From the NCBI RefSeq assembly GCF_030013205.1, contig NZ_CP122648.1: a stretch of DNA of 64,000 nt, one strand, 5' to 3'. This DNA comes from Escherichia coli (lineage in GTDB: Bacteria > Pseudomonadota > Gammaproteobacteria > Enterobacterales > Enterobacteriaceae). A program made the position numbers. How positions within the stretch are numbered: the first letter of the stretch is position 1; each line of letters starts with the position of its first letter. Shown here in pieces: positions 33,301 to 36,300 of this stretch.

Positions 33301-36300
33301 TGCATCGGGAGAATTAATCGCTGCCAACCTCCCGATGCGCTGTGAATAGCGGTTTACATCAACCACCTGCTTTCATTACCCATTCAGAGATAAATTTATT
33401 ACCCGGTACTGGCGGAGAGTACAAATAGCCCTGCAAAAAGTGAACGCCTTTGCCGATCATTAAATCCGCCTGCTCCTGGGTTTCTACCCCTTCCGCCACG
33501 ATACTCAGACCAGGCTTACGCGCCAGTTCGACAATATTGTCCACAATATGACCGGATATTTCGTCCACGCTCGCCATTTGCACAAATGACTTATCGATCT
33601 TAATAAAATCGACCGGGAACGCCTGCAAGTAACGATAGGTCGCATAACCCGTACCAAAGTCATCCAGCGCAAAGGTAATGTTGTGCTGATGAAGGCTGTC
33701 AAATATCGCTCTGGCTTCTGGCGTTACCGGAATAGGGTTACGTTCCGTTAGCTCGAGAACCAGTTTGATTTTATCGTTACCTAATTTCTTGACCAGGTTC
33801 AGACACTCTTTTTCAAATCCCGCAGCCAAAAAACAACCCGCCGAGACGTTGATGCCAATATGGAAATTGTCCGGCAGCAAATGTTTTACCGGCATCAGAA
33901 TATCCGCAGTCTGTTTCATCAACTGGCGAGTCATTATGACGATAAGACCAGATGACTCCGCCAGAGGAATAAACTGATCCGGTGGGATAATTCCCGTTTG
34001 TGGATGTTCCCAGCGGACAAGCACCTCACAGCCCGTCAGTACCCCAGTCTGCGCGCAGAAAACCGGTTGGATCCACGGTTTAAATTCATGGTTTTCCAAC
34101 GCCAGACTGATGGCTTCAGGCGTGACGATATGGTGATAGTGATTATCATTAATATATTTGTGACTATTATTACCCGTGGCGGATATGATCTCCGGATTGT
34201 ACTGAAAGAAAATATCCCGCCAGAAAGTAAGATCGCTCTGAATCCCCAGTTTCTCAAAGAGCTGTTTCTTTTGATGTGAAATGGTCTTTGCACTGCGATT
34301 TCTGTACTGTGATATTTCTGTTACAGACATTCCCTGCATCAGCAGCTTGAGTAGCAGTCGTTCTTTCTCGGATACGCTACCAGGCAATGACAAATGAACC
34401 GTTGTACCGAACTCTTGCAGAAAAACACGAAAATCACATGAATTCATGAACACACCTTTTATCTTTTATCGCTGTTCAGTATGAGTGATTACCTGTGGAT
34501 TCCTGAGCACACATAAGGGGTAACCATAAACATCAGCGATGCCATACGCATAACATCCCACATCACTATCAAAAAGATTATCTTTACCTCTGATGCTCGC
34601 TCAAAAACAGTTACGCTAAATACCTTAAAAAGGTAATCACAAGTCAAACTCAGGAGATAATCACGCAAGAATGCAATATTAAAATTCAGATACTCATTTT
34701 TGGTAATAAAGAAGTAGTTGGACTATTTCAATATTTATAATTTCCCACTACGTATTGACGCCCATTCATGAGTAAAGGCGCATTATATGAATTTAACAAT
34801 CCAGATCAACTGAAAATACCTCAACCTCATAAACACATAGCGTCAACATTCAATGACATAATGAGTAAAGATGTTGGTTATGCATACACGTCATTACTCT
34901 ATGCCTATCCCTTAACAACCTGCTTTTTAAGGCTGAATCCATTCAGCAATAGATAGCCAACATTATAACAATGACAATAAAAACAATATTTAAAACAATC
35001 AATAAAATATCAGACACAGACAATTAAACCTTAAACAACAAACAGTTACATTGATTTTAGTTGATTTGCGCTACGCGTTTCCCATGAATAAAGCGTCATT
35101 TCAAATTAGCACCAATATTTACATTAAATAAGACTAAGCTTATTGAACATTCACAACAGTCCAAGCGTAGGTTTTGGGCTTCAATAGTTCTTTTCTTTTT
35201 TATTATCTGTTGCCTGGCAATCATCAATCGATACTAAGGGCTTAACTGTACACAGATATAACGTATCAAGAGGTAAGAGAAACCGCGCCATATGCAGACA
35301 TGGCGCGGTTTTATGCAATAACAATCACGCGTCCGGGAACATCACGCTATGGCCCGGCGCTTCACGATGGAGATGGATAAAGTTAAGGTGCCGCTCGTAC
35401 TGATCGAGAATATCGGTGATCACCTGCTCTTTGCTGTAGTCCATCAGGTCGTTGCCCTGGCTGCCTTCTAACAGGAAAGTTTCCAGCCGGTAGTAGGTCG
35501 ATTTACCGCTACGTGCGCGGTAGGTAAAGCCCGGCACCGAATATTGCTGCGGCCAAATCTGATAGACAAAGTTTTGCTCTTCGCCCATATGCACCAACAA
35601 ATCCAGATGCCCCAACTGTTGTCCCTCTTCCGGCGGCAGGCTTTTTAGCTCCACGTACGCGCCGCGCAACCGCAGCTCCTGCGCCACTTCTTCCATTGCC
35701 GGGTAACAGACCGTCTCCATCATCTGTTTAGTGTAACGCGTGCCCGGATAATTCATCAGGCGCGAGAGACGTTTTTTCCAGCTCAGGCGATCCTGAAGCC
35801 CCAGCGGTCGCGGCGCGGTATCACGGTTGGCACTTTCACGGCGGTAATCTTCTACCTTCAGAGATTTATACAACCCCGCCATCACGAAGAAAATCACAAA
35901 GCTGAACGGCAGCCCCATGATTACCGTGGTGTTTTGCAGCGCGGATATCCCGTTGGTCATCAGCATGCCGAGCGTCAGCAGGCCAATCGCCACCGACCAG
36001 AAGACGCGCAGCCAGCCGGGGGCGTCGCTGTTGATATCTTTAAGCTGCGAGGTGAAATTCCCCAGCACCAGCGCCCCGGAGTCCGCCGAGGTCACATAAA
36101 ACAGCAGGCCAGTAATGGTGGCGACGGAGGCGCTAAAGGTAAACGCCGGATACTGCGCCAGCAGGCTGTAGAAGCCGCGCTCCGGATGGACCATCGCTTC
36201 CTCGGCAAATGCCGCGCCGCCGTGGATGATTTCATACAGCGCGCTATTGCCGAACACCGAGAGCCATAACAGCGTGAAGGTAAACGGAATAATCAACGTG

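What the first reader, a model, noticed from the sequence alone, without database searches (positions are those of the whole stretch)
34448..35324. 877-bp AT-rich non-coding region between pdeL and betT
This is an unusually long gap for E. coli, upstream of the autoregulated c-di-GMP phosphodiesterase gene pdeL and downstream of betT. It contains only a weak 62-codon ORF (34768-34956) with no SD. Its size and composition suggest a complex regulatory region or an unannotated small RNA.
Basis: seen in the sequence. Interest (0 to 1): 0.3.

Follow-up and report, generated by a model that had tools for sequence, protein, structure and literature searches.

The report
Known pdeL control region with yahV
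The long AT-rich gap between betT and pdeL is real, but it is the already-studied control region of the pdeL gene, and it also holds the tiny known protein gene yahV; nothing points to a hidden small RNA.

Summary
The region 34448-35324 is an 877-bp gap between pdeL and betT, both on the minus strand. It is the longest of 38 gaps in the first 50 kb and contains the lowest-GC stretch of the 64-kb window (GC 0.35).

It is not unexplained. Every element described for the E. coli K-12 pdeL control region maps onto it:
- the betT terminator
- the distal PdeL box (CIB)
- the Cra box
- sigma-70 promoter P1, confirmed by two K-12 transcription-start datasets
- a 329-nt leader

The gap is not strictly non-coding. 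An intact homologue of the 24-codon small-protein gene yahV lies at 34943-35017 (-).

The 62-codon ORF is antisense to the promoter, lacks a Shine-Dalgarno sequence and is broken in cryptic Escherichia clades. I judge it spurious. Rfam, promoter/terminator scans and the start-site data give no support for a small RNA.

Side findings:
- About 26% of E. coli genomes carry the adhesin gene ehaA here instead, driven by the same Cra box and P1.
- A well-conserved 108-nt hairpin sits in the leader.
- A Dam site lies in the -35 hexamer.

Verdict: already known, low interest.

The parts
35272..35311 (-). betT intrinsic terminator. The hairpin AAACCGCGCCAT/ATGGCGCGGTTT spans 35311..35280 and is followed by UUUCUCUU. 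It starts 13 nt after the betT stop codon (35325-35327).
   Evidence: Inverted repeat I2 has 12-nt arms that are 100% complementary. The RNA fold gives -23.9 kcal/mol, z = -4.6, with 0 of 200 shuffles as stable. SMRT-Cappable-seq lists betT as monocistronic in K-12.
35124..35147 (-). CIB, the Cra-independent PdeL box: palindrome TTCAATAAG-N6-CTTATTTAA, centred about 360 bp upstream of the P1 start.
   Evidence: It matches the 'CIB fwd' oligo of Reinders et al. and inverted repeat I8. It is 92-100% identical in cryptic-clade Escherichia, where the flanking DNA is about 42-61% identical. One of 24 sites varies among 9 E. coli.
34943..35017 (-). yahV homologue: GTG start, 24 codons, reading VSDILLIVLNIVFIVIVIMLAIYC*. 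Its stop codon lies inside the Cra box.
   Evidence: Translation. RefSeq annotates 'protein YahV' at the homologous place in K-12-type strains. The K-12 protein was detected by chromosomal epitope tagging (PMC6001520 Table 1). The ORF is open in 9 of 9 E. coli, but all 8 nucleotide differences change the amino acid, and the ORF is broken in both cryptic clades.
34932..34947 (.). Cra box (CB), GCTGAATGGATTCAGC, centred about 164 bp upstream of the P1 start.
   Evidence: It is the only match in the 64 kb, with one mismatch to the perfect palindrome. It is the sequence scrambled in the CB- mutants and contained in the CB/CDB EMSA oligo. It is 100% conserved in the cryptic clades, and the first 15 nt (GCTGAATGGATTCAG) are also identical in O157.
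34918..34931 (-). CDB, the Cra-dependent PdeL box. It reads CTTAAAAAGCAGGT here and CTTAATGAGTGGGT in K-12.
   Evidence: The position comes from the CDB- scrambling oligo 5028. It is 71% identical to K-12. It is the most variable segment of the gap among E. coli, with 6 of 14 sites variable.
34782..34809 (-). Sigma-70 promoter P1: -35 TTGATC (34809..34804), 16-nt spacer, -10 TATAAT (34787..34782). The -35 hexamer holds the only Dam site (GATC, 34804-34807) in the gap.
   Evidence: It is the best promoter-like site in the scan, matching 10 of 12 positions. The RNAP-recruitment fragment 4695-4283 and the 'P1' mutant oligo 5032 of Reinders et al. cover it. None of its 28 sites varies among 9 E. 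coli.
34776..34777 (-). pdeL transcription start, projected from K-12.
   Evidence: Cappable-seq gives its strongest start in the gap at U00096.2 position 331267 (score 8.9). SMRT-Cappable-seq gives b0315 a start at U00096.3 position 332042, monocistronic. The coordinate shift of +776 and the gap-free alignment give window 34776/34777.
34448..34776 (-). 329-nt AT-rich pdeL 5' leader. It includes the Shine-Dalgarno sequence AAGGTG at 34458..34453 and two weaker K-12 starts that project to about 34690 and 34540.
   Evidence: It is 97% identical to K-12, more conserved than the upstream half of the gap. The whole-leader fold is not unusual: z = -1.5.
34500..34607 (-). 108-nt imperfect hairpin inside the leader. 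This is a candidate cis element only; it is unproven.
   Evidence: The fold gives -34 kcal/mol with z = -3.1 here, z = -6.5 in Escherichia sp. E1V33 and z = -3.0 in strain 8794, with 0 of 200 shuffles as stable in each. The consensus fold keeps it, with one-sided changes but no compensatory ones. Only 3 of 108 sites vary among 9 E. coli. The antisense strand gives a similar z-score, so the signal may be a DNA-level palindrome.
34768..34956 (+). I judge it not to be a gene.
   Evidence: It runs antisense across P1 and up to the Cra box, and no Shine-Dalgarno sequence is visible. It is broken by stops in both cryptic-clade homologues. It matches no NCBIfam family. Only GenBank records call it, as 'hypothetical protein', and current RefSeq annotation of the identical strain omits it.

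Best explanation
The gap is the transcriptional control region of pdeL, the K-12-type allele in a slightly diverged form, with the micro-gene yahV embedded in it.

Reading in the sense (minus-strand) direction, the elements are:
- betT ends in an intrinsic terminator.
- A distal PdeL palindrome (CIB) follows.
- Then comes yahV.
- A Cra box comes next, with a proximal PdeL box (CDB) abutting it.
- About 164 bp further on is the sigma-70 promoter P1.
- P1 transcripts carry a 329-nt leader into pdeL.

The mechanism has been shown in K-12 by others. H-NS coats the AT-rich DNA and silences P1. Cra binds its box and lets PdeL bind CDB. At low c-di-GMP, PdeL forms a tetramer that engages CDB and CIB, which lie about 196 bp apart; looping is proposed. 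The tetramer competes with H-NS and recruits RNA polymerase, giving cooperative, bistable autoactivation.

For this strain the mechanism is inferred. All elements are present at the same spacing, with the Cra box, CIB and P1 almost unchanged. Whether the diverged CDB still binds PdeL is not known. The length of the gap is what an H-NS-silenced, loop-activated promoter with a long leader needs. It is not a sign of an extra gene for a small RNA.
For: - Gap and neighbouring genes.
- Elements located from published oligonucleotides: CIB, CB/CDB, P1 and use of the whole gap as PpdeL.
- Independent sequence evidence for the same elements.
- Start site at P1 in two K-12 datasets. Mapping to the window.
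- H-NS, FIS, IHF and RNAP binding at yahA: PMC1636352.
- H-NS repression, Cra/PdeL co-activation, the c-di-GMP effect, and H-NS/PdeL competition at CIB: bioRxiv 10.1101/2021.10.01.462762 and 10.1101/2022.01.19.477023.
- Phylogenetic footprints: in the two cryptic-clade homologues CIB is 92-96% identical, the Cra box 100% and P1 89-96%. The background between the elements is 42-68% identical, and pdeL third codon positions are 82-88% identical.
- P1 is invariant among 9 E. coli.
Against: - All binding, silencing and start-site data are from K-12. None comes from this allele.
- CDB, which the published work says c-di-GMP control strictly depends on, differs from K-12 at 4 of 14 positions and is the most variable segment of the gap.
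- The published H-NS sites were predicted with Virtual Footprint. My scan for the motif TCGATAAATT gave no more matches than chance.
- The transcript that feeds yahV is unexplained. No sense-strand start was recorded between the betT stop and P1.
- Much of the spacer diverges faster than synonymous sites, so much of its exact sequence may not matter.
Confidence: 0.85

Rival explanations
1. The gap encodes an independent, unannotated small RNA.
For: Support is indirect only: a long gap, a leader that is highly conserved within E. coli, and a stable 108-nt hairpin.
Against: No Rfam family matched, even at E<=10; the single hit scored 19 bits against a gathering score of 38.9. Three promoter-like sites were found against 4.0 +/- 1.9 expected, and the only terminator is betT's. 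The hairpin has no U-tract after it. K-12 sense-strand starts are P1 plus two weak ones inside the leader, and full-length reads assign the P1 start to a monocistronic pdeL mRNA. Outside the known boxes, conservation beyond E. coli is poor.
Confidence: 0.04
2. The 62-codon ORF at 34768-34956 (+) is a real protein-coding gene.
For: It is open in E. coli proper (61-62 codons) and is called 'hypothetical protein' in GenBank records, in a 67-member cluster.
Against: It has no Shine-Dalgarno sequence. It lies antisense over the invariant promoter and Cra box, which alone explains why it stays intact. It is interrupted by stops in both cryptic-clade homologues. It matches no family, and current RefSeq annotation drops it.
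Confidence: 0.03
3. Most of the spacer is evolutionary debris. It is AT-rich filler left when this locus was rearranged relative to the ehaA-carrying allele, and only about 100-150 bp of boxes are functional. On this reading the length is a historical accident rather than a regulatory requirement.
For: Between the boxes, identity to the cryptic-clade homologues is 42-68%, below the 82-88% at pdeL synonymous (third-codon) sites. About 26% of E. coli genomes have ehaA here, and E. albertii and E. whittamii have an autotransporter gene upstream; in all of these pdeL is preceded by only about 90-140 bp. yahV shows no purifying selection: 8 of 8 changes are non-synonymous.
Against: H-NS silencing depends on extended AT-rich tracts (established knowledge), and AT-richness is kept in all lineages, at GC 0.34-0.36. 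The spacing of CIB, the Cra box and P1 is preserved. The leader and its hairpin are among the least variable parts of the gap within E. coli.
Confidence: 0.25
4. The long leader adds a post-transcriptional control layer. The 108-nt hairpin, or a short helix that pairs GAACAGC with the Shine-Dalgarno region, would act for example as a thermosensor or a target for a protein or small RNA.
For: The hairpin has z = -3 to -6.5 in three lineages and is kept through one-sided changes. Only 2.8% of its sites vary. pdeL is more strongly expressed at 37 C (PMC5052742; PMC12890032).
Against: There are no compensatory changes. The antisense strand gives the same z-score. No Rfam family matched. The temperature effect is what H-NS silencing alone would give. 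The conservation could equally reflect downstream H-NS or other protein sites on the DNA.
Confidence: 0.12

Closest known systems
E. coli K-12 pdeL (yahA) regulatory region, as dissected by Reinders et al. and the Schnetz laboratory
   Same: The flanking genes, length (877 versus 874 bp), order and spacing of terminator, CIB, yahV, Cra box, CDB, P1 and leader are all the same. P1 is identical, the Cra box and CIB each differ at one base, and the leader is 97% identical.
   Different: CDB differs at 4 of 14 positions. YahV differs at 7 of 24 residues. The segment between CIB and yahV is only 84% identical. K-12 has a second GATC next to CIB that this allele lacks.
H-NS-silenced promoters with upstream and downstream silencing regions that are relieved by a specific anti-silencer (for example bgl and proU; from general knowledge, not tested here)
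   Same: An extended AT-rich tract lies on both sides of a good sigma-70 promoter. RNAP is bound but trapped. There is strong derepression in an hns mutant, and a DNA-binding activator competes with H-NS.
   Different: The anti-silencer is the product of the silenced gene itself. It is an enzyme whose oligomeric state is set by its substrate c-di-GMP, and it needs Cra as a partner.
The betT-ehaA intergenic region of O157:H7-type E. coli, the alternative allele at this locus
   Same: The first 15 nt of the Cra box (GCTGAATGGATTCAG) are identical. The promoter is the same (TTGATT-N16-TATAAT followed by GCGC, with the same TATTTT..AG motif upstream). The two sit at the same spacing: 131 versus 133 bp. 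nhmmer gives E = 1.1e-5.
   Different: In O157 this module precedes the 3984-bp adhesin gene ehaA. No counterpart of the CIB/yahV segment or of the 329-nt leader was detected by nhmmer. pdeL sits 141 bp after ehaA, behind a terminator-like hairpin. The -35 hexamer has no GATC.
Small hydrophobic single-helix proteins of E. coli found by epitope tagging (YahV, b4730)
   Same: The homologue here has the same length, GTG start, position and hydrophobic character.
   Different: This 24-residue variant is absent from the protein collection and is not annotated in the identical RefSeq genome. Its translation has not been tested.

Membership tests
K-12-type pdeL control region | A Cra box upstream of the promoter | tested here: met
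   GCTGAATGGATTCAGC at 34932-34947 is the only hit in the 64 kb, with 1 mismatch to the perfect palindrome. It is the same sequence that Reinders et al. scrambled.
K-12-type pdeL control region | A distal PdeL palindrome (CIB) | tested here: met
   TTCAATAAG-N6-CTTATTTAA lies at 35124-35147. It has one difference from K-12, in the spacer.
K-12-type pdeL control region | A Cra-dependent PdeL box (CDB) abutting the Cra box | tested here: inconclusive
   The position is conserved and the CTTAA core is kept, but 4 of 14 bases differ from the K-12 site shown to bind PdeL. Binding cannot be tested with these tools.
K-12-type pdeL control region | Promoter P1 and a start site about 329 nt upstream of the pdeL ATG | tested here: met
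   The -35 and -10 hexamers are identical to K-12. The K-12 start was mapped by two methods. The start in this strain is a projection, not a measurement.
K-12-type pdeL control region | H-NS occupancy and silencing | not testable with these tools
   Only AT-richness can be shown (GC 0.35). Occupancy is reported for K-12. The motif scan was uninformative.
yahV small-protein gene | An intact 24-codon ORF with a GTG start at the homologous position | tested here: met
yahV small-protein gene | Evidence of translation, and of selection on the protein | tested here: inconclusive
   Translation has been shown only for the K-12 allele. Here, 8 of 8 differences from K-12 are non-synonymous and the ORF is broken in the cryptic clades.
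Small RNA gene | Its own promoter and terminator, or a match to a described RNA family | tested here: not met
Cis-regulatory leader RNA (riboswitch or thermometer) | A conserved structure supported by covariation, or an Rfam match | tested here: inconclusive
   A stable hairpin is retained in three lineages, but with no compensatory pairs and no Rfam match.
Protein-coding gene (62-codon ORF) | A ribosome-binding site, conservation of the reading frame, and family membership | tested here: not met

The most novel reading that the evidence does not exclude
The long spacer may be a lineage-specific mosaic. On this reading, a Cra-controlled promoter module (the Cra box plus P1) is shared with the adhesin gene ehaA of the alternative allele. 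In about two thirds of E. coli that module has been coupled to pdeL. Newer parts would then have been added around it: the PdeL boxes CIB and CDB, a de novo micro-ORF (yahV) and a conserved 108-nt leader hairpin. A Dam site inside the -35 hexamer might add an epigenetic input, because pdeL is among the genes most reduced in a K-12 dam mutant. If so, the PdeL bistable switch would be allele-specific, and ehaA would be an unrecognised Cra target.
Probability: 0.25. Interest if true: 0.4.

Novelty: already known. Interest (0 to 1): 0.15.

Why it matters
For a genome scan, the main value is negative. This conspicuous AT-rich gap needs no new explanation: it is a textbook-style H-NS-silenced, Cra/PdeL-activated control region plus a catalogued micro-gene.

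Two smaller points could matter to people working on c-di-GMP heterogeneity:
- The PdeL box that c-di-GMP control depends on most (CDB) is the most variable part of the region among E. coli lineages, including this one.
- About a quarter of E. coli genomes lack this architecture altogether and carry ehaA behind the same Cra box and promoter.

The bistable PdeL switch described in K-12 may therefore not generalise across the species.

Tried and rejected
- **Rfam scan** of 33800-35900 at E<=10: one chance-level hit only (RAGATH-35, 19 bits against a gathering score of 38.9).
- **Consensus terminator scan:** it found none, missing even the betT hairpin, which I confirmed by repeat search and folding instead.
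- **H-NS high-affinity motif TCGATAAATT**, up to 2 mismatches: 66 hits against 71.6 expected, so uninformative.
- **Whole-leader fold:** z = -1.5, not unusual.
- **Strand test of the hairpin:** the antisense strand gives the same z-score, so this could not separate an RNA signal from a DNA one.
- **Search for remnants of ehaA or other autotransporter sequence in the gap** (blastn with word size 7, and nhmmer --max): nothing beyond the Cra box/P1 module and the terminator. The idea that the leader is decayed ehaA is therefore unsupported.
- **Cross-genus conservation:** full-length pdeL exists only in Escherichia, so no wider comparison was possible.
- **Primary J Bacteriol papers** (PMC4719445, PMC8095459, PMID 26553851): not held. 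Element positions were instead taken from the oligonucleotide table of the bioRxiv paper.
- **Literature searches linking ehaA with pdeL or betT:** nothing relevant was returned. This is not proof that the link is new.
- **Minus-strand Cappable-seq starts:** could not be read because the stored file is truncated.
- **NCBIfam scan** of the 62-codon ORF and YahV: no families.
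Full report
**Observation.** The window matches E. 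coli strain 746 at 100% identity over the queried 1151-bp segment (34300-35450). That strain's RefSeq annotation places pdeL at 33359-34447 (-) and betT at 35325-37358 (-). The unannotated gap is therefore 34448-35324, 877 bp, exactly as reported. It lies downstream of betT and upstream of pdeL on the same strand. It is the longest of 38 gaps in the first 50 kb (median 97.5 bp; the next longest are 526 and 412 bp). Its GC is 0.348, against 0.399 for the other intergenic DNA and 0.523 for coding DNA. The lowest-GC 877-nt stretch of the whole 64-kb window starts at 34406. The 62-codon ORF at 34768-34956 (+) is there, and nothing resembling a Shine-Dalgarno sequence precedes it.

**What is annotated elsewhere.** Of 5426 complete E. 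coli genomes, 3598 hold at least 80% of the 1151-bp query (the gap plus about 140 bp of flank on each side). In K-12-type strains RefSeq annotates a 24-codon gene, 'protein YahV' (b4730), inside the gap. The homologous ORF is intact here at 34943-35017 (-): GTG start, VSDILLIVLNIVFIVIVIMLAIYC*. It is not annotated in the identical genome, and this exact sequence is absent from the protein collection. YahV of K-12 was detected as a chromosomally epitope-tagged protein (PMC6001520, Table 1) and is described as a single-helix membrane peptide (PMC9976479). So the gap is not strictly non-coding.

**Regulatory anatomy.** The K-12 gap is a studied control region.
- Reinders et al. (bioRxiv 10.1101/2021.10.01.462762) showed that Cra binds a Cra box (CB). 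PdeL binds an adjacent Cra-dependent box (CDB) and a distal Cra-independent palindrome (CIB). [quoted passage not shown] Low c-di-GMP favours a PdeL tetramer that activates cooperatively.
- Their oligonucleotide table let me place each element in the window.

| Element | Window position | Supporting calls |
|---|---|---|
| CIB, TTCAATAAG-N6-CTTATTTAA | 35124-35147 | 31, 36 |
| CB, GCTGAATGGATTCAGC | 34932-34947 (only match in 64 kb) | 28, 37 |
| CDB | 34918-34931 | 37 |
| P1, TTGATC-N16-TATAAT | 34809-34782 (-), best promoter-like site | 6, 37, 38 |

The full gap, from the betT stop to the eighth pdeL codon, is what they fuse to lacZ as PpdeL (oligos 4398/4399).

**Transcripts.** Two K-12 datasets were readable.
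- Cappable-seq (PMC4782308 supplement, U00096.2 coordinates) lists sense-strand starts at 331267 (score 8.9), 331353 (4.8) and 331503 (3.6) within the gap. It lists none between the betT stop and 331267.
- SMRT-Cappable-seq (PMC6131387 supplement, U00096.3 coordinates) lists b0315 with a start at 332042 as a monocistronic unit, and betT as a separate monocistronic unit.

The shift between the two coordinate systems is +776, and the alignment has no gaps in this stretch. The P1 start therefore projects to window 34776/34777, 6-7 nt after the -10 hexamer. That gives a 329-nt leader ending in AAGGTG-N6-ATG. betT ends in a strong hairpin followed by UUUCUCUU. No transcript other than the pdeL mRNA is indicated. 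The minus-strand part of the Cappable-seq table was not available to me.

**Tests of the small-RNA and ORF ideas.**
- Rfam at E<=10 gave one sub-threshold chance hit.
- Promoter-like sites are not enriched (3 found against 4.0 +/- 1.9 expected), and the consensus scan found no terminator.
- The 62-codon ORF runs antisense over P1 and up to the Cra box. It is open in E. coli proper but interrupted in both cryptic-clade homologues. It matches no family. It survives only as 'hypothetical protein' in GenBank records.

I reject both ideas.

**Conservation.** Full-length pdeL occurs only in Escherichia. Two cryptic-clade genomes (Escherichia sp. E1V33, and strain SCPM-O-B-8794) have a homologous long spacer with GC 0.35-0.36. 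In both it follows ykgG directly, with no bet genes. Against them, pdeL is 93-96% identical (third codon positions 82-88%), but the spacer as a whole is only 63-70% identical. The known elements stand out as footprints against a background of 42-68% between them:

| Element | Identity to the two cryptic-clade homologues |
|---|---|
| CIB | 92-96% |
| Cra box | 100% |
| P1 | 89-96% |
| Leader as a whole | 76-80% |

In addition, about 80-90% of columns in the last ~100 nt of the leader are identical in all five aligned sequences.

Variable sites among nine E. coli sequences:

| Segment | Variable sites |
|---|---|
| P1 | 0 of 28 |
| Leader hairpin | 3 of 108 |
| CIB | 1 of 24 |
| Cra box | 1 of 16 |
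| CDB | 6 of 14 |
| CIB-to-yahV segment | 19 of 106 |

yahV is open in all nine E. coli sequences. However, all 8 nucleotide differences between the K-12 and window alleles change the amino acid, and the frame is broken in both cryptic clades. It behaves like a young, weakly constrained micro-ORF in T-rich DNA.

**Mechanism, with shown and inferred steps.**
- Shown in K-12 by others: H-NS silences P1. Cra binds CB and is needed for PdeL to bind CDB. PdeL also binds CIB in competition with H-NS. Cra and PdeL together recruit RNA polymerase. c-di-GMP shifts PdeL from an active tetramer to an inactive dimer, producing a bistable switch.
- Proposed by those authors: a DNA loop between CDB and CIB, assisted by IHF and FIS.
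- Inferred here: the same mechanism applies to this allele, because all elements and their spacing are kept. CIB is centred 196 bp upstream of CB, and CB is centred about 164 bp upstream of the start.
- Open: whether the diverged CDB still supports Cra-dependent PdeL binding, and which transcript feeds yahV.

**Side findings.**
- In O157:H7 the locus reads betT, a 573-bp gap, ehaA (autotransporter adhesin, 3984 bp), a 141-bp gap, then pdeL. 1400 of 5426 genomes carry this allele.
- A profile of five long-spacer sequences finds the first 15 nt of the Cra box (GCTGAATGGATTCAG) unchanged in the O157 betT-ehaA gap, along with the same P1 (TTGATT-N16-TATAAT followed by GCGC) at the same spacing (E = 1.1e-5). 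nhmmer found nothing matching the CIB/yahV segment or the leader.
- E. albertii and E. whittamii also have an autotransporter gene ending about 90 bp before pdeL. The promoter core is therefore shared between two alternative alleles that drive different genes. I found no paper in the held library linking ehaA and pdeL.
- A 108-nt imperfect hairpin in the leader (34607..34500) folds better than all 200 shuffles in three lineages (z = -3.1, -6.5, -3.0) and is retained through one-sided changes. It has no compensatory changes, and the antisense strand gives an equal z-score.
- The only GATC in the gap lies in the -35 hexamer of P1. pdeL is among the five most strongly reduced genes in a K-12 dam mutant (log2 fold change -3.08; PMC11741368 table). 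That paper mentions pdeL only in its tables.

**Verdict.** It is the known pdeL control region with the catalogued micro-gene yahV. 'Unannotated small RNA' and 'only a 62-codon ORF' are not. Novelty: already known. Interest is low. The allele-level observations (variable CDB, promoter module shared with ehaA, leader hairpin, Dam site) are leads, not findings.

Noticed in passing
L048 4689-4878 (O157:H7 strain 3384, betT-ehaA gap); compare window 34778-34951: In the alternative allele, betT is followed by the adhesin gene ehaA and then pdeL. That gap carries the same first 15 nt of the Cra box and the same P1 promoter at the same spacing as the pdeL control region here (nhmmer E = 1.1e-5). 1400 of 5426 complete E. 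coli genomes carry this allele; 3598 carry the long spacer.
   Followed up: partly
L048 about 4990-5010; compare window 35272-35283: The breakpoint between the two alleles falls at the 3' edge of the betT terminator stem. O157 keeps the GC-rich stem but loses the last three pairs and the U-tract (GGCGCGGgaatcatt), so betT termination may be weaker there.
   Followed up: no
L004 and L005, positions about 2900-4000: In two cryptic-clade Escherichia genomes the homologous long spacer follows ykgG (lutC) directly. The whole bet cluster is missing within the 4 kb held, yet a betT-terminator-like hairpin is still present (82% identical over 39 nt).
   Followed up: partly
window 34804-34807: The only Dam site (GATC) in the gap lies inside the -35 hexamer of P1. 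It is present in all 9 E. coli long-spacer sequences examined but absent from O157 and the cryptic clades (TTGATT). A K-12 dam mutant shows pdeL down about 8-fold (PMC11741368 table).
   Followed up: partly
window 34500-34607 (-): There is a 108-nt imperfect hairpin in the pdeL leader. It is more stable than all shuffles in three lineages, and only 3 of 108 sites vary among 9 E. coli. No covariation supports it.
   Followed up: partly
window 34943-35017 (-): yahV has three protein alleles among nine E. coli. All 8 nucleotide differences between the K-12 and window alleles are non-synonymous. Its stop codon overlaps the Cra box. No sense-strand start was recorded upstream of it in the K-12 Cappable-seq data.
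   Followed up: partly
hits H18 and H22; L056 488-1185: IS1 elements sit in or truncate this spacer in some strains. In isolate F467, IS1 replaces everything from about window 34862 through pdeL, yahB, yahC and yahD into yahE. In strain PCP06173, pdeL is annotated as a truncated pseudogene.
   Followed up: no
L008 and L013: A 385-bp contig of a 'Stappia sp.' assembly is 99% identical to pdeL. A contig binned as a 'Collinsella' MAG carries an Escherichia-type autotransporter-pdeL junction. Both look like contamination or mis-binning.
   Followed up: no
window 45212-45737: The second-longest gap in the window (526 bp, GC 0.359) lies between ykgE and rclR. I did not examine it.
   Followed up: no
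window 19242-23675; L005 5534-9017: A four-gene sugar/AI-2-type ABC transporter cluster sits between yahK and yahJ in the window. In strain SCPM-O-B-8794 a similar-looking cluster lies immediately downstream of pdeL, where other genomes have yahB. I did not compare the two in detail.
   Followed up: no
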